Of a stretch of 53,846 nucleotides of DNA, positions 8,848-44,737 are shown piece after piece (within the stretch, counting starts at the first letter, position 1; every line of letters starts with the position of its first letter). Position numbers and translations under genes: made by a program. Origin of the DNA: Escherichia phage mEp554; the sequence record PP180005. One strand, written 5' to 3'. The notes below the pieces were generated by a model. The model searched no databases and had not been told where the DNA came from. It worked only from the letters and a program-made list of their open reading frames with translations.

Positions 8848-9112
8848 GTTTCTTTCTCCTATGGTTAGAGTGAACGCGCTGGCGGGTATCAAATTAGCAT
8901 TAGATAGCAGTGACTGACCGCTGAACAGATCCCGCCGTTGCGTGATATTTGTTTTTCGCTTCGCAGCGACACCGGATTTTTAAAGAGCTTTTAAGGTATG
9001 TGCCTTTTGTGCTTTCCCTTATCTTTTTCCTTGCATCATTGCAAGTTCGGCTTTACCTTGTCTGTAAGTTTACAGAATGGCGTTAACAGATCAAGGATTG
9101 AAAATTACATTT

Positions 9113-14291: not shown

Positions 14292-14307
14292 TGTGATTGC
14301 GATCACA
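14292..14307. promoter_or_regulatory. Perfect CRP-consensus palindrome TGTGATTGCGATCACA
   Basis: TGTGA-N6-TCACA; intergenic; followed by TACAAAATGTATA motif (minus orientation) and a TGTGATCGCGA half-site. Confidence 0.4.
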
Positions 14308-17896: not shown

Positions 17897-17912
17897 CGTG
17901 ATGCGGATCACA
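17897..17912. promoter_or_regulatory. CRP-like palindrome CGTGATGCGGATCACA
   Basis: GTGA-N6-TCACA; centred about 60 bp upstream of predicted TSS of promoter CTTGTT-N17-TATACT (17929-17957). Confidence 0.35.
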
Positions 17913-22571: not shown

Positions 22572-22587
22572 TGTGATCTTTATCACA
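22572..22587. promoter_or_regulatory. Perfect CRP-consensus palindrome TGTGATCTTTATCACA
   Basis: TGTGA-N6-TCACA; centre about 60 bp upstream of predicted TSS of the 22605-22633 promoter. Confidence 0.4.
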
Positions 22588-36881: not shown

Positions 36882-37562
36882 ATGATTCACGTTCGAACAG
36901 GACAGTTTGCGGTTGTGGTTGATGGCAGACGTTACGAATTTAATCCCTGCTTTGCTGCAATGGCTAAGATCGGCAGTGACAGGGAACTGGTCGAATATTT
37001 CGCAACGGTTCACGGCGGCAGATACCCACGACGTTTGCCAATGGATACAGACCTCCGCAATCGCATTCTGGCGCGTTGTTATGGTGGACTGGTGCAAACG
37101 TCCATCCACATATTGAAATGTTGCTCAGAATGCGAAATAGGCCAGTTATTGGGCGAATGTAGCTTTACTCCTTCGGGTAAGTTGAGACTGAAACCTGGAT
37201 TGATGCCCACCAGCGACGTTATCACACTTGCGCAGCACTGCATGTTTCACGGTTTAATTGGTGACGGTCCAGAAGAAGACACGGGCGAAAACCAGGATGG
37301 CGAGTACAAGCCCACATTCGACATCCTTGAGTATGTTTATTCTGCCGTTGCTCACCTGGGATTGTCTGAGTCTGAAGCGTGGGGCATGACAATGACCGGA
37401 TACAGGGCCGCAGTACGCGCTAAAACGCCGCCAGACGAAAGAAACGAGAAACGTAAGCCAAACGTTCAGATAAATAAACGTGATTATGATGAGCAAATGG
37501 AGGCCGCTAAGAGGGTGCTGGAATTGATGAAAAAACGCGAGCAAGAAAAAGCCCGGAATTAA
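36882..37562 (+). CDS. Tail assembly chaperone (G/GT-like)
   Basis: Position between major tail and tape measure; start at MIHVRTGQ; no obvious slippery site seen. Confidence 0.5.
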   Translation: MIHVRTGQFAVVVDGRRYEFNPCFAAMAKIGSDRELVEYFATVHGGRYPRRLPMDTDLRNRILARCYGGLVQTSIHILKCCSECEIGQLLGECSFTPSGKLRLKPGLMPTSDVITLAQHCMFHGLIGDGPEEDTGENQDGEYKPTFDILEYVYSAVAHLGLSESEAWGMTMTGYRAAVRAKTPPDERNEKRKPNVQINKRDYDEQMEAAKRVLELMKKREQEKARN

Positions 37563-37578
37563 CCGGGCCTTTATCTTT
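37551..37578. terminator. Bidirectional rho-independent terminator
   Basis: GCCCGG-AATTAA-CCGGGC hairpin flanked by A5 upstream and CTTTATCTTT downstream; ends both the chaperone gene (+) and the convergent minus-strand moron. Confidence 0.65.
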
Positions 37579-37891
37579 ACTTGTATGCTGCGAATCGGCA
37601 TCTTGCTTCATCCAGGTCATGAACATCGTACACGTTATCGTAAATGTAAGTTGCTACCTGTGCTTTCTGTACGTCAGTTGCGTTCGGGAACTCCATGCTT
37701 ACGAAAGTCACTGCATCAACGTAGTGTTTGAACATCTTTTTGTTAACGCACAGTGCGTAAATCAATACGGCAGGCCAGCAAATCAGCGCGCCAAAGAATG
37801 CCATGAGCATATTCAGATGTTTTTTCTGAGCTACAACCATAGTTGCGACGAATCCGATGAAGCAAATTACCAGTTCCATGATGCACCCCAT
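37577..37891 (-). CDS. Membrane protein (two TM segments), opposite-strand moron
   Basis: MELVICFIGFVATMVVAQ...LMAFFGALICWPAVLIYALCV then soluble C-terminal domain. Confidence 0.55.
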   Translation of the reverse strand: MGCIMELVICFIGFVATMVVAQKKHLNMLMAFFGALICWPAVLIYALCVNKKMFKHYVDAVTFVSMEFPNATDVQKAQVATYIYDNVYDVHDLDEARCRFAAYK

Positions 37892-37998
37892 TAATTACGT
37901 TTATCTTCGGTTGTCATTGCCAGCACTAGCACAGCCATCACATTAAATGCTAACCATGCTGTAATATATACATCTATAACCGTTTTGATTGTGTCCAT
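37891..37998 (-). CDS. Single-helix hydrophobic mini-protein (35 aa), moron
   Basis: MDTIKTVIDVYITAWLAFNVMAVLVLAMTTEDKRN; stop overlaps next start. Confidence 0.4.
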   Translation of the reverse strand: MDTIKTVIDVYITAWLAFNVMAVLVLAMTTEDKRN

Positions 37999-38011
37999 TT
38001 ACCCGCCACGC

Positions 38012-38098
38012 TTATTTCTTGTTTTTAAGTGCTTTCAACATTTTTTCGATGAAATCGGCATAACGCTCATGCTCGTTTGGTCGGTAGTAGTTTTTCAT
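38012..38098 (-). CDS. Small basic protein (28 aa), first gene of minus-strand moron
   Basis: MKNYYRPNEHERYADFIEKMLKALKNKK; GAGGA SD. Confidence 0.3.
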   Translation of the reverse strand: MKNYYRPNEHERYADFIEKMLKALKNKK

Positions 38099-38176
38099 TT
38101 TCTTATCCTCTTTTGCTTCCTCCGGTTAATCCGGCCTTCTAAATCCCTTTACTCTATCCCTTTCCTTTAGCCTCTT

Positions 38177-38218
38177 TATACAAAATGTATTCGTTGAAGT
38201 GAAGCCATTTTGTATAAA
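38177..38218. promoter_or_regulatory. Divergent promoter pair built on back-to-back TATACAAAATG motifs
   Basis: Plus: TCGTTG-N16-TATAAA (38191-38218); minus: TTCACT-N17-TATAAA; each -10 lies inside the partner motif. Confidence 0.4.
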
Positions 38219-38255
38219 ATAGAGATCAGGATCACACTTTTTACGAGGTTAAATC

Positions 38256-40604
38256 ATGGCTACCAGTTTAGGTACAATTTATTACGAAGTTGATGCAAAA
38301 ACTGGTCAACTTCTAGTCGCTCAGAGACAGGCGGACCAGGCTTTTGACAGTATCGAGCGTGGCGCAAAACGCGCTGACCGCCAGGTGAACACGCTTAAGA
38401 CTTCAATCAAAGCACTATCCAGGGTCATTCATCTGTTACTTGCTGCGGAGGCTGTGCGCCAGTTTATTGACATGGCGGAGCAAGCAAAAATGCTTCGCGT
38501 AAAAATCAAATTGCTTACAGGTGAAGCGGAGGCAACGGAACGCGTTTTCAACAGACTGAAAGAAATATCAAAAGAAACAGGGCAAAGCCTCAAGGATACT
38601 GGCGACCTGTGGCAAGGGCTTGCTATATCGCTAAAAAACACATCCGCTACTGAAGGCCAGGTCCTCAACCTGGTTAGCACGCTGCAAAAACTCGGCAACC
38701 TGGGCGGCGTGTCTGCGGAACAACTATCAAACTCCATGCGCCAGTTCCGCCAGGCTATTGATGCTGGCGTGTTGCAGGCTGAAGAATTTAACTCAATCCG
38801 TGACAACACCCCAACAATCATACAGGAAATGGCACGCCAAATGGGGTTGTCTATGGGGCAGTTCCGCGCTGAAATGCTGGACGGCAAGATCACGGCTGAA
38901 AGGATGCTCAACGCGATCCAGGCCGCCACGCAGGAAACGAACGAGAAGTTCGCACAGTTGCCGCGCACATCCGGCATGGCCTTCAACGAGCTTAAAGTTG
39001 AGGTTATGGGACTTGTCGAACAGCTAGACGATCTTTTCGGCATATCAGATGGCGTTGTGTCGGCAATAGACTTAATCACTGGTGGCGTTGAGGGATTAGG
39101 TAAAGGCGCAAAATTCGCCGCAACATGTTTCAATACACTAAAAACGGCTGGCAGCGAATTTATCGACATGTTTGATGATGTTGCTGTTAAGGCTGGCGAG
39201 GTGGCGGAAGAGATTATCAGGATGGTAACGCCAATCAAGGCGCTAATGGATGGCTACAAATGGATGAAGGAAATCATTGACAAGCGCAAGGAAGAGCTAA
39301 ATAGCAACAACGAGAAGAAATTTGGCCCTACAGTTGGTAAGGTCATGACGTTTGCAAACGACATTAAAAACGCAACTGCCGCCTATGATGAGTTCATGGA
39401 GAAACAGGGTGAGGCTGACGATGGTAAGATCACGGGATTCGATCAGCCAGTTGGTAAACCGAAAAAAGGTAAAAAGGGCAAAAAAGACAAGAAATCTGAA
39501 GCTGATCGGCTTGGTGATGAAGGTATAAAAGTCTCTGACCAGTACAACAAAGACGCCGCCGCTATGCGTAAAGCACTGGAGAACGGCAAGGCCATTGACG
39601 CCGCATTTGCCCAGGGAAAAATAACCCTCCTTGAGTACAAGGCCGCGCAGAAAGGTATAGGCAAGGAACTGAAGGACGAATTGGCGCAAATCCCTGTTGA
39701 TGAGCTACGCGACAAATGGGACCACATAGTTAGCCCAATGGACCAGCTTAAGGGCGAAATTGACCCAATCAAACAGGCGCAAAATGAATGGGCCGTAAGA
39801 AAGCAAATGCTATTGGACCTGGGCGCTACAGAGGCGCAACAGAGACAGGCGCAATTGGAATACGAACAACAGATCCGGGATCTGAAGTGGGAGCAATGGC
39901 AGGCGCAAAGCGAAACAAACGGACTGATCGGCGCTTGCGTCAGCGGCCTGAAAGGTGGCATGGGCAATGCCCTTACAGGACTGTTAAACGGTACTCAATC
40001 ATTAAGCGAGGTTTTTGCCAACCTGGGAAGTAGCATACTTAACACCGTTGGCAACAAACTATCAGAAATTGCCGCTAACTGGATAGCAGATCAGTTAATG
40101 ATGGAAACACAAAGCAAGGCCACGCAAGCAAGTACCACGGCAGGCGCGGTAGCGGCACAAGGCCAGATTGCAGCGGCGGCGGCCCCGGCAGCGGCGGCTA
40201 CGGCTGCGTCAACTGGTGGTAGCTGGGCGGCGGCTGGTGCTGCGGCGCTTTCTGCGATCATGTCGCTGGCAACGTCAATCTTTGGTGGCGGGCGTTATAA
40301 TGGTGGTTCTGTTAATGGTGGTAGCCTGTATCGAGTAGGGGAACACGGAATACCTGAGCTATTCCAGACGAGCAACGGGCGTCAGTATATGATTCCTGGC
40401 GAAAATGGTAGGGTAATTCCTGGCCGCGATCTCTTCAATGGTGGCGGCATCAATATGCCTGTGCAAATCACAGTTCAGACCACAAACGGATTTAGCGACG
40501 AAGATAGCCGCAGACTTGAGCAGACGATGGAGCGCGTAGCAATGAAAATGATGGCAAGGGAATCGCAACGACCGGGAGGAATGTTGCAACCGCGCCGCAA
40601 ATAA
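38256..40604 (+). CDS. Tail tape measure protein
   Basis: 782 aa, alpha-helical, Ala/Gly-rich C-terminal segment; position. Confidence 0.85.
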   Translation: MATSLGTIYYEVDAKTGQLLVAQRQADQAFDSIERGAKRADRQVNTLKTSIKALSRVIHLLLAAEAVRQFIDMAEQAKMLRVKIKLLTGEAEATERVFNRLKEISKETGQSLKDTGDLWQGLAISLKNTSATEGQVLNLVSTLQKLGNLGGVSAEQLSNSMRQFRQAIDAGVLQAEEFNSIRDNTPTIIQEMARQMGLSMGQFRAEMLDGKITAERMLNAIQAATQETNEKFAQLPRTSGMAFNELKVEVMGLVEQLDDLFGISDGVVSAIDLITGGVEGLGKGAKFAATCFNTLKTAGSEFIDMFDDVAVKAGEVAEEIIRMVTPIKALMDGYKWMKEIIDKRKEELNSNNEKKFGPTVGKVMTFANDIKNATAAYDEFMEKQGEADDGKITGFDQPVGKPKKGKKGKKDKKSEADRLGDEGIKVSDQYNKDAAAMRKALENGKAIDAAFAQGKITLLEYKAAQKGIGKELKDELAQIPVDELRDKWDHIVSPMDQLKGEIDPIKQAQNEWAVRKQMLLDLGATEAQQRQAQLEYEQQIRDLKWEQWQAQSETNGLIGACVSGLKGGMGNALTGLLNGTQSLSEVFANLGSSILNTVGNKLSEIAANWIADQLMMETQSKATQASTTAGAVAAQGQIAAAAAPAAAATAASTGGSWAAAGAAALSAIMSLATSIFGGGRYNGGSVNGGSLYRVGEHGIPELFQTSNGRQYMIPGENGRVIPGRDLFNGGGINMPVQITVQTTNGFSDEDSRRLEQTMERVAMKMMARESQRPGGMLQPRRK

Positions 40605-40610
40605 ACAAAA

Positions 40611-40638
40611 CCCCGGTACAATGCCGGGGTTATCTTTT
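40611..40638 (+). terminator. Rho-independent terminator after tape measure gene
   Basis: CCCCGG-TACAATG-CCGGGG hairpin plus TTATCTTTT. Confidence 0.6.
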
Positions 40639-40913
40639 AGTTATTCTCAAATCTTGTATATCCTCTCTCAATTTTCCCTCCGTGTACACTTCTGGCAAAT
40701 ACCGCGTCAGTATACCTGAAAAATGGACATGTATATGTATCCCCTTTGCTATCCATATATTTTAGCACCCATGCCATACGTTTTACATTGCTTTTATTTG
40801 CCGGGTTTTTCATTTTATTTTCCTCCGCAAATCACAACCTGCCGTTTCTTGCTATGTAGCTGCGAGCAAACATCACCTGCCAGATGTTCCAGATCTCCCG
40901 CCACGTAAATTCA

Positions 40914-41063
40914 TCATCTTCCATATCTCACACCATCGCGCTTGTATGGTTCGCCATCAGCAAACGGGATTAACTCATCGTTTGCCACCATTCGATTGAA
41001 CCAGTCTTTCAGAGCAACCAGGGAGAACCGGATCCCGTAACTGTGCAATTCGCGCCACCTCAT
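40914..41063 (-). CDS. Hypothetical small protein (49 aa), third gene of minus-strand cassette
   Basis: ATGA overlap with upstream stop. Confidence 0.3.
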   Translation of the reverse strand: MRWRELHSYGIRFSLVALKDWFNRMVANDELIPFADGEPYKRDGVRYGR

Positions 41064-41314
41064 TTATGTGCCCCTTTCACTCCACAATGTCGGTTGTATT
41101 CAAGGTGGTCAATAATTAGCCAAACCTTCAAATCTTCACTGAACAGCCGCCAATCAGGGTTTATGTCCATCTTGTAACCGTAACCATCGCGTAACTTTTT
41201 GGGGTAAACCTCTTTTTTAAGAAAAGCATCAAGTAATTGTTTTCCTTTCTTGATGATCCGTTCTTGGGCGTTTTTCTGTGCTTTCAGGTTTTTGCCAATC
41301 ATTACCAATTTCAT
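41060..41314 (-). CDS. RelE/HigB-superfamily toxin-like protein (tentative)
   Basis: GYGYKMDINPDWRLFSEDLKVWLIIDH resembles the conserved core of RelE/ParE/HigB-fold toxins; lysine-rich N-terminus. Confidence 0.4.
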   Translation of the reverse strand: MKLVMIGKNLKAQKNAQERIIKKGKQLLDAFLKKEVYPKKLRDGYGYKMDINPDWRLFSEDLKVWLIIDHLEYNRHCGVKGAHK

Positions 41315-41334
41315 AACTCACCCCACGCAATCAA

Positions 41335-41490
41335 TCAGTTGACCACTTTCAGGAAGAAATCACGGTATTCATCTTCTTTTGCATTCATCATGAATTGACC
41401 GTATTTGAACGCATCATCAAAACCCTTCACAATCGCAACTTCCACCTGTTCGAATGCTTTGTTTAGCATTACCACTACATAGCGTTCCAT
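41335..41490 (-). CDS. Hypothetical small protein (51 aa), first gene of cassette (antitoxin candidate)
   Basis: AAGGGGG SD before MERYVVVML. Confidence 0.35.
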   Translation of the reverse strand: MERYVVVMLNKAFEQVEVAIVKGFDDAFKYGQFMMNAKEDEYRDFFLKVVN

Positions 41491-41659
41491 ATTGGCCCCC
41501 TTTGTTGGTACTGCTTTCTCTTCTTGCTTTCTGTATACATCTTGTTGCGTCCTGTGTGAAGCCATTTCGTAAACTGGGTATAATTCTTGTGACGAAGTTC
41601 TCATTTTTCGCGTAGAAGCGCGTAAAGATGTATGCAATATGTAACTTATAGGGGGAATC

Positions 41660-42013
41660 ATGCCGGAAGTTTTCAGATGGACGCCGCAAAGAAGCTACAG
41701 CGTGACCAGGGAACCAAATGTGTCGGTCGTTAAACTTGGTGATGGTTATGAACAGCGCCAGGCGAAAGGGATTAACACGTTGCTTGATAGCTACACCCTG
41801 GTTTTTAAAGGCAGTAGCGCAGGATGCGGTGATAGTGGGAACGTGGCGATCCAGGCAGAAGCATTCTTGAGGGCGCGCGGCGCTGTCGAGGCTTTTTACT
41901 GGTCGCCGTCTATGGATGGTGTGCAAAGGCTTTTTGTTTGCCGTAGCTGGAGTATGACAAAGGACGGGCCTGTATACACGCTAAACGCAACATTTGAGCA
42001 AGTTGTTGGCTAG
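41660..42013 (+). CDS. Minor tail protein M
   Basis: 117 aa; lambda gpM-like size, position and recalled sequence character. Confidence 0.7.
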   Translation: MPEVFRWTPQRSYSVTREPNVSVVKLGDGYEQRQAKGINTLLDSYTLVFKGSSAGCGDSGNVAIQAEAFLRARGAVEAFYWSPSMDGVQRLFVCRSWSMTKDGPVYTLNATFEQVVG

Positions 42014-42024
42014 TGGGGGTTAAT

Positions 42025-42210
42025 ATGTACGGGACTTGTGTAGTTGACAAAACTGACGCATTTACATTATTTGACGACTATGAGATCAACGACCTTACTG
42101 TAAAGGCTGACAATGGCGATACATGGTATCTTCATGATGTTGGTGACGGGTATGTGGGATGCAGATCCAGGGAAGGCAAGGAGGTTTTATTTTTGGTTGA
42201 TGGCGTGTAA
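42025..42210 (+). CDS. Hypothetical small protein
   Basis: GGGGG SD; inserted between M and L. Confidence 0.4.
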   Translation: MYGTCVVDKTDAFTLFDDYEINDLTVKADNGDTWYLHDVGDGYVGCRSREGKEVLFLVDGV

Positions 42211-42216
42211 TAACAA

Positions 42217-42240
42217 CCCCGCTTCGTGCGGGGTTTTCTT
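42217..42240. terminator. Bidirectional rho-independent terminator, copy 1 of duplicated module
   Basis: CCCCGC-TTCGT-GCGGGG hairpin with T-run; 37/38 nt shared with 50715-50751. Confidence 0.65.
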
Positions 42241-42241
42241 G

Positions 42242-42379
42242 TTAGTAGTGAATATACAGCAAACTCATTGGGTGAGCGTGCGCCATATTATTGGCTATCG
42301 CCGCCCAGTCCCAATCTGCAGCATGAGCGCCAAATACTATCAGTCCCATTATTATTAGCGCCAAAACTTCTATTTTCAT
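42242..42379 (-). CDS. Small secreted protein with signal peptide (45 aa)
   Basis: MKIEVLALIIMGLIVFGAHA then ADWDWAAIANNMAHAHPMSLLYIHY. Confidence 0.4.
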   Translation of the reverse strand: MKIEVLALIIMGLIVFGAHAADWDWAAIANNMAHAHPMSLLYIHY

Positions 42380-42389
42380 AATCTGTCAC

Positions 42390-42638
42390 CTATAAGTTAT
42401 CACGCAGATAATTAACGCCCTTATCAGTGACGAATGAATGATTAACCTGGTTTTCATCCGTCATAATGATGAATAACTTTTCTTGTAGGTACTTAGCTTT
42501 CGGGTACAACGTTAAACAAACCTGATACAAAATCCCGCGCTCAATCAGCAAATCAATAAATTCGTGTTCATGATAACCGATGATGCGGGCGGCCTGTTTC
42601 AACGTGTACACATAATCACCGTGATTGCGCCGCCCCAT
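42390..42638 (-). CDS. Small DNA-binding-like protein (KilA-C-like HTH, tentative)
   Basis: YTLKQAARIIGYHEHEFIDLLIERGIL resembles KilA-C segment of the antirepressor at 6482-7225. Confidence 0.45.
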   Translation of the reverse strand: MGRRNHGDYVYTLKQAARIIGYHEHEFIDLLIERGILYQVCLTLYPKAKYLQEKLFIIMTDENQVNHSFVTDKGVNYLRDNL

Positions 42639-42647
42639 GCTGCCGCC

Positions 42648-42998
42648 TTATTTATCGAATGCGCTCAGGTTATCGATGCAGAAGTCTTTCGCAGCTTTTT
42701 CGTATTCGCGTTTTGCTTGCGGATTGTCTGCCGGGAAACCTTTTGCGTGTATTTCACCAGGGCAAGCCTGATCCATAGAATCTGCAAAGTTAACATTGGC
42801 GTTGAAGTTAATATCTTTCGGGTTCATCTCTTCCACCTTATCCGGCACTTGTACAGGAATAACATAATAATCACGAGCATTAGACCAACAGCGGAGCAAT
42901 TCGCAACCTTCATTGCGCGCTGATTCGAATGTGTCAAATAGTCCCATGCTTTCCCATTCACATTTATCAGTCCACACGTCTAATCTGTATTTTTTCAT
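42648..42998 (-). CDS. Hypothetical protein
   Basis: ORF in minus-strand moron operon; start uncertain. Confidence 0.45.
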   Translation of the reverse strand: MKKYRLDVWTDKCEWESMGLFDTFESARNEGCELLRCWSNARDYYVIPVQVPDKVEEMNPKDINFNANVNFADSMDQACPGEIHAKGFPADNPQAKREYEKAAKDFCIDNLSAFDK

Positions 42999-43170
42999 TT
43001 TTTGCTACAACCTCCCATTTGACAGGTTCGATCCTGTACCCCAAAACGCGTTCGTCTTCAGCGAGTAAGAGCGCGTCGGTAAGTGCCTCGCCTTCATCTT
43101 TATACAGGGCCACAGTCATTTTCCTGCCATCCGCAAGGAACACCGTCAACCTCCACACCTTATCATCCAT
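42967..43170 (-). CDS. Hypothetical protein, first gene of moron operon
   Basis: GGAGGTG SD before MDDKVWRL. Confidence 0.45.
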   Translation of the reverse strand: MDDKVWRLTVFLADGRKMTVALYKDEGEALTDALLLAEDERVLGYRIEPVKWEVVAKNEKIQIRRVD

Positions 43171-43216
43171 TTCACACCTCCGCGCCATTTTGTTAATCAT
43201 GCTTCCTTTTGAGTAC

Positions 43217-43245
43217 AATATACATACTGTAAAAAACGCGATCAA
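43217..43245 (-). promoter_or_regulatory. Sigma70-like promoter for minus-strand moron operon
   Basis: Minus strand TTGATC-N17-TATATT. Confidence 0.4.
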
Positions 43246-43264
43246 CCGTTTTGGTATGATTTAG

Positions 43265-43280
43265 CGTGATGGCGATCACA
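43265..43280. promoter_or_regulatory. CRP-like palindrome CGTGATGGCGATCACA
   Basis: GTGA-N6-TCACA centred about 62 bp upstream of predicted minus-strand TSS; 19 nt upstream of L start. Confidence 0.35.
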
Positions 43281-43298
43281 AAATGACAAGGTGATAAA

Positions 43299-44003
43299 AT
43301 GCGCAACATACCTACAGAGATGATTATTGATTCCGTCGATGCCGGAGTCGGCGCTGTAATTGACTTGTTTGAATTAGACCTCACGCCCCTGGGTGGCGAG
43401 GTTATCCGCTTCCATTCCGGCGCTAATGGCTATTACGGCCCGGTTATCTGGAAGGGCTTGGCTTACAACAGCTACCCGATCGAGGCTACTGGCTTCGAAA
43501 TGAAAAACGAAGGTGTTTACTCACGCCCACAAATGGTAGTGGCAAACATTGGCGGCCTAATCACTGGGATGAATAACGATTTTAACGACCTGCGAGGAAT
43601 GAAGGTTACGCGCCGCCAGGTGGAAGTAAAATACCTGGACGCCGTCAACTTCCCCAATGGCAACCCGGATGCAGATCCATCTATTGAGGCTGTATCTTTT
43701 TACGTCGTTGAGGCGATGAGCGAAGAAACAGCCGACCAGGTGCAATATGAACTGTCAACGCCAATTGACGCTGACAAGGCGGTTATTCCAGGGCGCACAA
43801 TCCTCGCTGACGTTTGCCAATGGCAATACCGTGGCGACGGTTGCGGATACAGTGGCGGCCCTGTAGCTACTGAAAAAGACGAATCGACCAGCGATCCTAA
43901 GCTGGATAAGTGCAGCCACCGCCTGAGCGGTTGCCGTTTGCGTTTTCCGCGCCCGAACCCGTTACCAATTTCATGTTTCCCTGGATCAAGCAAGGTCGGT
44001 TAA
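43299..44003 (+). CDS. Minor tail protein L
   Basis: 234 aa; C-terminal CQWQYRGDGCGY...CSHRLSGCRLRF cysteine cluster as in lambda gpL. Confidence 0.8.
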   Translation: MRNIPTEMIIDSVDAGVGAVIDLFELDLTPLGGEVIRFHSGANGYYGPVIWKGLAYNSYPIEATGFEMKNEGVYSRPQMVVANIGGLITGMNNDFNDLRGMKVTRRQVEVKYLDAVNFPNGNPDADPSIEAVSFYVVEAMSEETADQVQYELSTPIDADKAVIPGRTILADVCQWQYRGDGCGYSGGPVATEKDESTSDPKLDKCSHRLSGCRLRFPRPNPLPISCFPGSSKVG

Positions 44004-44005
44004 TT

Positions 44006-44737
44006 ATGGCACTTGAAGATAAAATGATTCGCTATGCGGCAGCCCACCAGGAAGAGGAAGTGTGCGGGCTGGTGATAGATAACGATTATTTTTACCCGTG
44101 CGCTAACGTGTCTGAAACGCCTCACAACAGCTTTAAAATCTCGCCTGACGATTATATCAAAGCTGACGAATTAGGCGTTATAACCGCCGTTTTTCACTCC
44201 CATACTGACAATTCGTTGATATTGTCAGCGCTGGATCGACAACAGCAGGTTATTTCCGGCATGCCGTGGTATTTGTGTTCCGGCGGCAGGGTAAGAAAAT
44301 TCCGCCCGGTGGCGCACCTGTTAGGACGTAAATTTGAACACGGGAAAGCAGATTGTTACTCGCTTTTCCGTGACGCATATCATCTTTGCGGCGTGGATCT
44401 GCCGGACTTTGAGCGCCACGATGGGTGGTGGCTGCGTGGGGAAAACCTGTACATAAAGAACCTGCCATTGCACGGGTTTTTCATGGTTGACGCTCAAAGC
44501 ATTCAGCCCGGTGATGTGATTATCCGTCAGCCATTTAAAGGCGCTGACCCATGCCACGCGATGATTTACCTGGGCGATAACACTGTTTTGCATCATGACA
44601 ATGCCGGACTGTTAAGCCGCCGCGAGCAAATGCGGCCCGCGTATGTTCGACAGACCAATTCAATATGGAGATCTGACAAATGCTCAAATTTAGATTTACG
44701 GGCAATCTTCGAAGATATTACGGCAAGGTGTGTTTGA
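44006..44737 (+). CDS. Tail assembly protein K (JAMM/MPN plus NlpC/P60-like)
   Basis: HSHTD JAMM-like motif; cysteine/histidine pattern; position after L. Confidence 0.75.
   Translation: MALEDKMIRYAAAHQEEEVCGLVIDNDYFYPCANVSETPHNSFKISPDDYIKADELGVITAVFHSHTDNSLILSALDRQQQVISGMPWYLCSGGRVRKFRPVAHLLGRKFEHGKADCYSLFRDAYHLCGVDLPDFERHDGWWLRGENLYIKNLPLHGFFMVDAQSIQPGDVIIRQPFKGADPCHAMIYLGDNTVLHHDNAGLLSRREQMRPAYVRQTNSIWRSDKCSNLDLRAIFEDITARCV

What the first reader, a model, noticed from the sequence alone, without database searches (positions are those of the whole stretch)
42025..43298. Opposite-strand moron operon inserted between tail genes M and L
In lambda, M and L are adjacent. Here they are separated by about 1.3 kb containing a small plus ORF, a bidirectional terminator (42217-42240), and four minus-strand genes (42967-43170, 42648-42998, 42390-42638, 42242-42379) with their own promoter (43217-43245) and an upstream CRP-like site. 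Products include a KilA-C-like small DNA-binding protein and a 45-aa secreted peptide with a signal sequence. Cargo in this position is expressed from the prophage independently of the late operon and commonly encodes lysogenic-conversion or defence functions.
Basis: partly seen in the sequence, partly recalled or inferred. Interest (0 to 1): 0.6.

Follow-up and report, generated by a model that had tools for sequence, protein, structure and literature searches.

The report
Backward accessory operon inside tail genes
A small block of backward-facing genes with its own promoter and stop signal sits between two tail genes of a temperate gut E. coli phage. It is real and every relative keeps it, but it is a familiar kind of add-on and its job is still untested.

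Summary
Between tail genes M (41660-42013) and L (43299-44003) lie a 61-aa rightward gene, a bidirectional terminator (42215-42235), and four leftward genes. I call them A (42967-43170), B (42648-42998), C (42390-42638) and D (42242-42379). A sigma70-like promoter (43245-43217) and a CRP-type palindrome (43265-43280) lie upstream.

The window is an mEp021-type (mEpimmI) temperate coliphage. In the nearest outgroup M and L overlap, so this is an insertion. It is not sporadic cargo: A, B and C occupy the same place in all of about 50 relatives, under purifying selection. Only D and a few extra ORFs come and go.

- C is a stand-alone KilAC/ANT domain and the most conserved product.
- A and the first half of B share a fast-evolving beta-beta-alpha-beta domain.
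- The second half of B pairs with D in relatives of virulent phages.
- No defence-system model matches any of the four.

My best reading is a fixed, independently transcribed antisense operon inside the Q-dependent late operon. It is probably cAMP-CRP-assisted, probably on in the lysogen, and probably damped by late transcription. The protein functions remain inferred. In kind it is ordinary; in content it is uncharacterised.

The parts
42025..42210 (+). sP: a 61-aa gene co-oriented with M and part of the insertion (an alternative GTG start lies at 42013)
   Evidence: ORF. phrog_3249, E 1.9e-22. Present in all relatives. dN/dS 0.09. Absent from the outgroup, where M and L overlap. Homologues of 45-53% identity in virulent Rtp-like phages.
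42215..42235 (.). Bidirectional intrinsic terminator: GC-rich hairpin with an A-run upstream and a T-run downstream
   Evidence: Found by the scan. mEp021 annotates it as a terminator on both strands. Stem conserved and loop variable in 27 of 31 distinct relatives.
42242..42379 (-). D: a 45-aa peptide with a signal-like or transmembrane N-terminus (MKIEVLALIIMGLIVFGAHA|AD...). It is the optional last gene of the operon.
   Evidence: ORF. SD sequence AGGTG lies 7 nt upstream. Hydropathy. dN/dS 0.16. ORF of at least 35 aa in 25 of 42 relatives. Homologues of 45-47 aa lie next to a stand-alone copy of the second half of B in unrelated contigs.
42390..42638 (-). C: an 82-aa stand-alone KilAC/ANT-domain protein, the most conserved product
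   Evidence: PF03374, 4e-7, above the cut-off. 88-99% identical across relatives. Only 7 clusters at 90% identity, all 82 aa. dN/dS 0.11. Model pLDDT 71, with weak resemblance to MerR/excisionase-type winged HTH folds.
42648..42830 (-). BC: the second half of B (residues 57-116), a nearly invariant module (ADSMDQxCPGEIHxxGFPADDPxAKREYEKAAKDFCIDNLGAFDK)
   Evidence: Alignment A1. Stand-alone 56-64-aa versions occur next to D homologues in other phage contigs. dN/dS 0.13.
42831..42998 (-). B_N: the first half of B (residues 1-56), a hypervariable beta-beta-alpha-beta domain
   Evidence: pLDDT above 90 for residues 1-50. Mean amino-acid distance 0.40, dN 0.275. Aligns with A over 48 columns (hhalign E 2e-4, probability 45%).
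42967..43170 (-). A: the first gene, with a 52-aa beta-beta-alpha-beta core. It may start at the conserved ATG at 43188.
   Evidence: ORF. SD GGAGG. phrog_29559, 2.8e-29. Found in 41 of 42 relatives. Fused to B in a sub-lineage. The RefSeq name 'transporter' has no support.
43217..43245 (-). Leftward sigma70-like promoter: -35 TTGATC, 17-nt spacer, -10 TATATT. Predicted transcription start near 43210.
   Evidence: Scan. Mean pairwise distance of the core is 0.07, against 0.28 in the neighbouring free spacer. Alignment.
43214..43231 (.). 18-bp palindrome TACAATAT-AC-ATAcTGTA lying over the -10 region; a candidate operator
   Evidence: Unique in the window, against 0.05 expected. Conserved in relatives. 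Unlike the CI-type palindrome at 9030-9045 and unlike a LexA box.
43265..43280 (.). CRP-type site cGTGA-N6-TCACA. Its centre lies 27.5 bp from the first base of the -35, roughly a class I position.
   Evidence: Half-site distance 0.009 against 0.276 in the spacer, across 42 relatives. The other two antisense cassettes have the same arrangement.
43190..43219 (+). Candidate rightward promoter (TTGTTA, 18-nt spacer, TACAAT) back-to-back with the leftward one. Status uncertain.
   Evidence: Scan, 9 of 12 positions matched. Both hexamers conserved.

Best explanation
The segment is an old insertion, now fixed, in the tail-tip gene block of an mEp021-type (mEpimmI) temperate coliphage. It consists of one extra rightward gene (sP), a bidirectional terminator, and a leftward operon A-B-C(-D) with its own promoter.

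I think it works as a gene set embedded backwards in the late operon, a 'non-contiguous operon'.
- Host RNA polymerase starts at the conserved sigma70-type promoter beside L (inferred).
- It is probably helped by cAMP-CRP bound to the constrained GTGA-N6-TCAC site about 60 bp upstream (inferred).
- It reads A, B, C and D, and stops at the hairpin behind sP (inferred).
- The control region has no sequence like the repressor's operators and no LexA box (shown). So the operon should be transcribable from the repressed prophage (inferred).
- During lytic growth, Q-modified late transcription must read through the hairpin and across the cassette head-on to reach L, K, I and J. That should damp the cassette (inferred by analogy with phi80 taiEcA).

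Products:
- C is a stand-alone KilAC domain that is almost invariant, so it probably acts on an invariant partner. Candidates are RecA/SOS, as shown for the isolated KilAC domain of Listeria AriS, the group's invariant repressor, or the promoter palindrome.
- A and the N-half of B are two copies of a small, fast-evolving domain.
- The C-half of B works with the small exported or membrane peptide D. The pair also occurs in relatives of virulent phages, so I guess it acts at the envelope, for example in superinfection exclusion.

My confidence in the architecture and transcriptional logic is about 0.7. My confidence in any one protein function is 0.25 or less.
For: Identity of the phage: 90-94% nucleotide identity to mEp013 and mEp021.

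Insertion: in the outgroup, M and L overlap.

Fixed module: A, B and C are present in every relative in the same order and on the same strand. All are under purifying selection.

Own signals: promoter and terminator are found by the scan and conserved. The promoter core has a pairwise distance of 0.07. The CRP half sites are at 0.009 and their spacer at 0.276.

CRP-type sites: GTGA-N6-TCAC occurs 6 times in the window against 0.68 expected. The two other antisense cassettes in the tail block have the same design of CRP-like site plus sigma70-like promoter. Their site-to--35 distances are 25.5 bp and 35.5 bp, about one helical turn apart.

Repressor independence: no LexA box and no CI-operator-like sequence near the promoter.

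Late read-through: a Q antiterminator is encoded in the window (PF03589, 8.5e-31).

Precedent: phi80 taiEcA is an opposite-strand gene inside the Q operon. It is expressed in the lysogen and reduced when Q is expressed (PMC11364771).

Proteins:
- C matches PF03374.
- The isolated KilAC domain of AriS blocks the SOS response (PMC9043618).
- A and B are fused in one lineage.
- The C-half of B and D are adjacent in unrelated contigs, which are distant relatives of virulent rV5-like phages.
Against: There are no expression data of any kind. The transcription start, the CRP dependence and the damping by late transcription are all predictions.

The CRP-like palindrome lies 19 nt upstream of the L start codon. 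It could instead be an RNA hairpin or the site of a phage protein. Its half sites never vary, so covariation cannot decide. One copy of the motif elsewhere in the window sits inside a hairpin that mEp021 annotates as a terminator.

The centre-to--35 distance here is 27.5 bp. I recall about 26.5 bp for lac.

A conserved rightward promoter candidate overlaps the leftward one, so the conservation may partly serve L.

C shares only a domain family with AriS, not demonstrated function.

D is missing from many relatives.
Confidence: 0.55

Rival explanations
1. This is a classic moron: horizontally acquired cargo expressed from the prophage that gives the host a lysogenic-conversion or anti-phage defence trait.
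For: It is an insertion relative to the outgroup. It has its own promoter and terminator. Its G+C is lower than that of the flanking tail genes. HK97 gp15 sets the precedent of a moron inside the tail operon (PMC3594210). The 3' end of the cassette behaves as a variable slot: D, a 67-aa ORF, a 58-aa ORF, a 77-93-aa ORF and AP2/HNH-like ORFs all come and go.
Against: A, B and C are fixed in all relatives, and the published 48-genome comparison lists the KilAC-like gene among its manually defined core genes. No PADLOC model matches. The proteins are small and have no recognisable enzymatic effector. sP and the BC-D pair have relatives in virulent phages.
Confidence: 0.2
2. It is a second immunity (immI-like) region. 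C is an antirepressor that inactivates the group's CI-type repressor. A and B regulate it, and the palindrome over the back-to-back promoters is the operator.
For: The KilAC/ANT family is named after antirepressors. C is nearly invariant, and so is the repressor of this group (95.95% similarity; PMC11893012). Overlapping divergent promoter candidates and an 18-bp palindrome are present. P22 immI also lies within late genes (my own knowledge, not tested here).
Against: C lacks the N-terminal domain found in known two-domain antirepressors (AntA/B, Bro-N, Rha). There is no LexA box and no CI operator that would keep an antirepressor silent in the lysogen. A and B do not look like Arc or Mnt: the model predicts beta-beta-alpha-beta, not ribbon-helix-helix.
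Confidence: 0.12
3. It is a lytic-cycle helper rather than a prophage-expressed unit. The genes would be made early in infection or after induction, for host takeover, anti-defence or exclusion. The antisense orientation would only time their shut-off by late transcription.
For: The module is core to the whole group. Homologues of sP occur in virulent Rtp-like phages. BC-D occurs in relatives of virulent rV5-like phages. A and B_N evolve fast, as expected for arms-race proteins. B_N has the fold of many small orphan phage proteins, including DUF7336 members, though the matches are weak.
Against: Nothing ties the promoter to the early N-type or late Q-type circuits. A plain sigma70-like promoter with a CRP-type site would also fire in the lysogen.
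Confidence: 0.18
4. The ORFs are chance frames in a non-coding spacer, or decaying remnants.
For: Three of the four products have no database annotation.
Against: dN/dS is 0.11-0.23 over about 40 relatives. ORF lengths are conserved. Shine-Dalgarno sequences are present. A PHROG family exists for A, B and C. B and D homologues occur in unrelated phages.
Confidence: 0.02

Closest known systems
HK97 gene 15 moron (Juhala 2000; Cumby 2012, PMC3594210)
   Same: Extra DNA inside the tail gene block of a temperate siphophage, with its own promoter and terminator and atypical G+C. It includes a small membrane-directed product (compare D).
   Different: HK97 gp15 is a single gene found in only some relatives, and it lies between the tail chaperone gene and the tape-measure gene. 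Here a 3-4-gene operon sits between M and L, faces backwards, and is fixed in the whole phage group. There is no sequence similarity.
phi80 taiEcA/atiEcA non-contiguous operon (He et al. 2024, PMC11364771)
   Same: Opposite-strand gene(s) embedded in the Q-controlled late operon. In phi80 the embedded gene is expressed in the lysogen and reduced when Q drives late transcription.
   Different: In phi80 the unit lies before the packaging genes and encodes a 26-kDa tail-assembly inhibitor plus an antidote. tblastn of B, C, the BC module and D against the phage collection returned only mEp-group phages, plus unrelated antirepressors for C and one weak unrelated hit for BC. I did not check whether phi80 is in that collection, and A was not searched this way. 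No function is shown here.
ANT/KilAC domain proteins, for example Listeria AriS (Azulay 2022, PMC9043618) and the P1/P7 Ant proteins
   Same: C matches PF03374 above the gathering score. The isolated KilAC domain of AriS is active on its own, as an inhibitor of the SOS response.
   Different: C consists of the domain alone (82 aa), has no N-terminal partner domain, and comes from a Gram-negative phage. Its activity is untested.
P22 immI region (mnt-arc-ant)
   Same: A small regulatory operon lodged among late genes, with overlapping divergent promoters and a palindromic operator (my own knowledge; the resemblance is one of layout only).
   Different: There is no homology. A and B are not predicted to be ribbon-helix-helix proteins. 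There is no evidence that C binds a repressor.
Class I CRP-dependent promoters (lac type)
   Same: A 9/10 match to TGTGA-N6-TCACA. The half sites are invariant across relatives and the spacer is free. The site lies about 60 bp upstream of the predicted start, next to a weak -35.
   Different: The transcription start is not mapped and binding is not tested. The same palindrome could act in RNA or bind another protein.

Membership tests
Moron (Juhala/Hendrix definition, as summarised in PMC3594210) | Inserted between two genes that are adjacent in related phages | tested here: met
   M and L overlap in Erwinia phage 49, whose L is 69.5% identical. They are adjacent in lambda (my own knowledge).
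Moron (Juhala/Hendrix definition, as summarised in PMC3594210) | Own promoter and own terminator | tested here: inconclusive
   Both are predicted and conserved. Neither has been mapped experimentally.
Moron (Juhala/Hendrix definition, as summarised in PMC3594210) | G+C content different from the surrounding genes | tested here: met
   43.8% in the cassette, against 51.7% in M and 52.2% in L. The window mean is 46.7%.
Moron (Juhala/Hendrix definition, as summarised in PMC3594210) | Present in some close relatives and absent from others (an add-on) | tested here: not met
   A, B and C are in all relatives examined. Only D and the extra ORFs are sporadic.
Moron (Juhala/Hendrix definition, as summarised in PMC3594210) | Expressed from the repressed prophage | not testable with these tools
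   No transcript data are available. The only indirect evidence is the absence of CI-operator-like and LexA sequences.
Non-contiguous operon (opposite-strand gene inside an operon) | Gene(s) on the opposite strand flanked by genes of one operon | tested here: met
   M and sP lie upstream and L, K, I and J downstream on the plus strand, with the cassette on the minus strand. A Q antiterminator is encoded in the window.
Non-contiguous operon (opposite-strand gene inside an operon) | Overlapping antisense transcripts that influence each other's expression | not testable with these tools
   This needs RNA-seq or northern blots with and without Q.
ANT/KilAC domain (Pfam PF03374) | Profile score above Pfam's gathering threshold | tested here: met
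   30.8 bits against 25.3, E 4e-7, covering residues 10-82. The same family is precomputed for the homologues.
Two-domain phage antirepressor (AntA/B, Bro-N or Rha domain plus KilAC) | An N-terminal regulatory domain fused to KilAC | tested here: not met
   C is 82 aa and consists of KilAC only. The architecture of known members is described in PMC9043618.
Class I CRP-dependent promoter | Match to TGTGA-N6-TCACA | tested here: met
   9/10 at 43265-43280. The half sites are invariant in 42 relatives.
Class I CRP-dependent promoter | Site centred near -61.5 (or one helical turn further) from the transcription start | tested here: inconclusive
   The centre at 43272.5 is 27.5 bp from the -35, or about -62 from the predicted start. 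The start is not mapped.
Class I CRP-dependent promoter | CRP-cAMP binds the site and activates the promoter | not testable with these tools
   This needs EMSA or footprinting and crp/cya mutants.
Sec-type signal peptide (gene D) | Short charged N-region, hydrophobic core, and small residues at -3 and -1 | tested here: met
   MK, then a hydrophobic core at residues 3-17 (Kyte-Doolittle about 2.4-2.7), then AHA|A. Homologues keep V-H-A. No dedicated predictor was available, and an uncleaved membrane anchor is equally possible.
Known anti-phage defence systems (PADLOC-DB 2.0) | Match to any defence-protein model | tested here: not met
   0 families at E up to 1 for all products.
Type II toxin-antitoxin pair (considered for A-B) | Recognisable toxin or antitoxin family, and cognate co-variation of the two partners | tested here: not met
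   No family match. Allele distances of A and B_N correlate only weakly (rho 0.22), and the A and B_N types occur in mixed combinations.

The most novel reading that the evidence does not exclude
The three backward cassettes in the tail block, this one included, are jointly gated by cAMP-CRP. The invariant stand-alone KilAC protein C is a RecA/SOS (or repressor) modulator. Together they would couple the prophage's induction threshold to the host's carbon status, a nutritional input into the lysis-lysogeny decision, wired through antisense operons inside the late genes. The B-D pair would be a separate envelope-level exclusion device, shared with virulent phages.
Probability: 0.08. Interest if true: 0.7.

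Novelty: new member of a known kind. Interest (0 to 1): 0.4.

Why it matters
mEpimmI phages made up about half of a collection of temperate coliphages isolated from human faeces (abstract of PMC11893012). Homologous prophage segments occur in 35 of 5,426 complete E. coli genomes.

Their tail operon is interrupted three times by backward-facing units, and the published genome comparison does not discuss them in its main text. If these units are expressed in lysogens and respond to CRP, they are the phage's interface with host physiology. They would then be the obvious place to look for exclusion, toxin-antitoxin and induction-control functions.

The work also defines three uncharacterised small-protein families: the A/B_N domain, the BC module and the D peptide. 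It identifies a conserved BC-D gene pair that crosses phage lifestyles, and it gives a stand-alone KilAC protein suitable for testing what that widespread domain does.

None of this overturns current ideas. It adds a well-delimited, testable example to the known class of morons and non-contiguous operons.

Tried and rejected
Database and structure searches that found nothing informative:
- Pfam, NCBIfam and PADLOC gave nothing for A, B, D or sP. PHROGs gave only families of unknown function.
- A profile search with the B alignment against 1.84 billion representatives found only members and fragments of the family itself.
- PDB sequence searches with C and with the B profile found nothing significant.
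- Foldseek of the B model against viral models gave only weak matches to about 55-aa orphan phage proteins (E of 0.012 or more).
- Rfam found no RNA family in 37000-44500.
- The plasmid collection has no BC homologue.

Regulatory motifs that were looked for and not found:
- A LexA box and a CI-operator-like motif are both absent near the promoter.
- The 18-bp palindrome occurs nowhere else in the window.

Ideas considered and dropped:
- A and B as a toxin-antitoxin pair: there is no family match and only weak allele co-variation.
- The RefSeq label 'transporter' for A: rejected as unsupported.
- D as an arbitrium-like signal peptide: considered unlikely, because D is optional, pairs with BC rather than with a receptor-sized protein, and occurs in relatives of virulent phages.
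- The enriched motif CCRTTTTGTW (14 copies against 1.05 expected): it could not be resolved into one function.
Full report
**What the window is.** The stretch 41600-43700 is 90-94% identical to Escherichia phages mEp013, mEp021, mEp515, mEp010 and mEp044. It also matches prophages in 35 of 5,426 complete E. coli genomes. These phages form the 'mEpimmI' group of Nus-dependent, non-lambdoid temperate coliphages described by Negrete-Mendez et al. 2025 (PMC11893012). That paper lists a 'phage antirepressor protein KilAC-like' among its manually defined core genes. A search of its main text found no mention of morons or of the genes in this cassette.

**Check of the observation.**
- Pfam confirms M (41660-42013) and L (43299-44003).
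- The consensus scan returns the hairpin at 42215-42235 and the minus-strand promoter at 43245-43217. The mEp021 record annotates the equivalent hairpin as a terminator on both strands.
- Among 31 distinct relatives, 27 keep the stem ACCCCGC/GCGGGGT directly after the stop of the small plus gene. The loop varies, with an A-run on one side and a T-run on the other. This fits a two-way terminator.
- Each minus gene has a Shine-Dalgarno sequence, read.
- Mean dN/dS across about 40 relatives is 0.09-0.23 for all five inserted genes, against 0.04-0.07 for M and L. These are protein-coding genes under selection.
- The cassette has 43.8% G+C, against about 52% in M and L, and its GC skew is reversed.

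**Is it an insertion, and is it a moron?**
- In the closest phage outside the group, Erwinia phage 49 (L 69.5% identical), M and L overlap with nothing between them. So the 1.3 kb, including the small plus gene, is an insertion specific to this lineage.
- Within the lineage it is not an add-on. In 5 annotated records and 44 of 45 IMG/VR loci the order is the same: M, sP, terminator, [D], C, B, A, promoter, L. The 45th locus, L049, has a different context (see the section on the proteins).
- In a more divergent sub-lineage A and B are fused into one 172-192-aa protein, C follows, and D is absent.
- Only the 3' end and one internal junction behave as variable slots. D is an ORF of at least 35 aa in 25 of 42 relatives. 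ORFs of 67, 58 and 77-93 aa, and AP2/HNH-like ORFs, come and go.
- The segment therefore meets most moron criteria but fails the criterion of sporadic distribution. 'Fixed accessory operon' describes it better.

**The control region.** The 128 bp between A and L are far more conserved than neighbouring synonymous sites.
- The promoter core has a mean pairwise distance of 0.07.
- The palindrome cGTGA-N6-TCACA (43265-43280) has half sites at 0.009 and a central spacer at 0.276. That pattern is expected for a site read by a dimeric protein.
- The site is a 9/10 match to the CRP consensus. Its centre lies 27.5 bp from the -35, or about -62 from the predicted start. This is close to the class I position.
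- GTGA-N6-TCAC occurs six times in the window against 0.68 expected. Two copies, at 14292 and 22572, are perfect TGTGA-N6-TCACA.
- The tail block holds two more backward units, one between the chaperone gene and the tape-measure gene and one between the tape-measure gene and M. Each has a sigma70-like promoter (-35 TTCACT or TTCACA, 17-nt spacer, -10 TATAAA or TATACA) with a CRP-like site 25.5 or 35.5 bp from the -35. The two distances differ by 10 bp, about one helical turn. The arrangement is conserved in relatives.
- An 18-bp palindrome (43214-43231) covers the -10 and is unique in the window.
- There is no LexA box. Nothing near the promoter resembles the CTTGCA-N4-TGCAAG palindrome next to the repressor gene.
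- A rightward promoter candidate overlaps the leftward one back-to-back.

I cannot exclude that the GTGA/TCAC palindrome acts as an RNA hairpin just upstream of the L ribosome site. One copy elsewhere in the window lies inside a hairpin that mEp021 annotates as a terminator.

**How it probably works at the transcript level (inferred).**
- The window encodes a Q-type antiterminator (PF03589, 8.5e-31).
- Late transcription must pass the hairpin and cross the cassette antisense to reach L, K, I and J.
- This is the layout called a non-contiguous operon in phi80. There the backward gene taiEcA is made in the lysogen and drops when Q is expressed (PMC11364771).
- By analogy, the cassette here would be on in the lysogen, modulated by CRP, and damped late in the lytic cycle. 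None of this has been measured.

**The proteins.**
- B (116 aa) is an orphan. It has 55 clusters, all from E. coli or this phage group. A profile search of 1.84 billion representatives found nothing beyond the family. B has a confidently modelled N-terminal beta-beta-alpha-beta domain that is hypervariable (mean distance 0.40). A poorly modelled linker follows, and then a nearly invariant C-terminal module, BC.
- A has the same predicted topology as the N-half of B and aligns with it end to end (hhalign E 2e-4, probability 45%). The natural A-B fusion supports a joint function. Allele types of A and B_N occur in mixed combinations (rho 0.22), so a strict cognate pair is unlikely.
- BC also exists as a free 56-64-aa protein. 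In four independent contigs it is followed, after 10 nt, by a 45-47-aa homologue of D. Two of those contigs, about 120 kb long, carry a metallopeptidase-like gene 62% identical to that of virulent rV5-like myophages. D is therefore a real gene with a conserved partner, and the pair is not restricted to temperate phages.
- sP has 45-53% homologues in virulent Rtp-like phages.

No product matches a PADLOC defence model.

**Verdict.** The feature is real and well delimited, and it is more than chance.
The 'cargo' reading is only partly right, because this is a core module of the phage group and its content points as much to phage-cycle functions as to lysogenic conversion.
- In kind it belongs with morons and non-contiguous operons. 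In content it is uncharacterised.
- I rate the transcriptional model at about 0.7 and any specific protein function at 0.25 or less. The overall confidence given for the combined statement is 0.55.

Noticed in passing
window 40605-41661: A second backward cassette lies between the tape-measure gene and M. It holds a ParE_like toxin ORF at 41060-41314 (PF24732, 7.7e-12), preceded by a 51-aa ORF at 41335-41490 that is probably the antitoxin, plus 58-aa and 49-aa ORFs. It has a bidirectional terminator at 40609-40631 and a CRP-like site at 41588-41603. The ParE-like pair is conserved in relatives, while the genes beyond it vary (mEp013 has a 436-aa ORF there).
   Followed up: partly
window 37577-38236: A third backward unit lies between the tail chaperone gene and the tape-measure gene, the same slot as the HK97 gp15 moron. 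It is a 104-aa ORF with two hydrophobic segments (37577-37891). Its promoter is TTCACT-17-TATAAA, with a CRP-like site TGTGAtcctgaTCTCT at 38221-38236.
   Followed up: partly
window 14292-14307, 17897-17912, 22572-22587: Two perfect matches and one 9/10 match to the CRP consensus lie in intergenic regions of the early-right and pre-lysis regions. GTGA-N6-TCAC occurs 6 times against 0.68 expected. The 17897 copy lies in the hairpin annotated TERM_4 in mEp021.
   Followed up: partly
window, 14 sites including 43185-43194 and 38205-38214; also 43246-43254 (CCGTTTTGG, a variant found): The motif CCRTTTTGTW occurs 14 times against 1.05 expected. Some copies are start-codon contexts and one is a terminator tail. 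Others sit beside -10-like hexamers 30-45 nt upstream of genes. The exact copy at 43185 and the variant at 43246 flank the cassette promoter and are conserved in the 42 relatives. AAATGGCTTCAC is shared by the promoters of the other two backward cassettes.
   Followed up: partly
L049 3962-4292; L053 3001-3349; L058 3001-3325; L059 2477-2801: A stand-alone BC module (56-64 aa) is followed immediately by a D homologue (45-47 aa). L049 and L053 are contigs of about 120 kb that are distant relatives of virulent rV5-like myophages. L058 and L059 carry PhoH, T5orf172, ClpP-like and Dam-like genes. This conserved two-gene module is undescribed.
   Followed up: partly
window 42025-42210: The small rightward gene after M has 45-53% homologues in virulent Rtp-like (T1-type) coliphages. 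It is absent from the outgroup that has adjacent M and L.
   Followed up: partly
window 42390-42638: Gene C has a mean dS of 0.29, while its neighbours have 0.5-1.2. Its synonymous sites are unusually conserved. The cause could be a sweep, recombination, or an overlapping constraint.
   Followed up: no
window 42967-42998: In this window (and in L004/L010) gene A has lost its usual stop after ...EPVK. It runs on for 15 codons and overlaps the start of B by 32 nt.
   Followed up: yes
L003 3891-4046; L005 4393-4581: RefSeq names gene A 'transporter'. No Pfam, NCBIfam or PHROG result supports that name for this soluble protein of 51-73 aa.
   Followed up: yes
L017, L026, L033, L039 (just after the sP stop); L027 between B and C: There are further variable slots. 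Four relatives have an extra rightward hydrophobic ORF that starts at the sP stop codon (TAATATG...) in place of the terminator. L027 has AP2/HNH-like ORFs between B and C.
   Followed up: no
window 43240-43245 and 43275-43278: GATC lies inside both the -35 hexamer (TTGATC) and the right half of the CRP-like site (GATCAC), and both are conserved. In mEp021 a gene is annotated as a putative DNA N-6 adenine methyltransferase, so methylation-sensitive control is conceivable.
   Followed up: no
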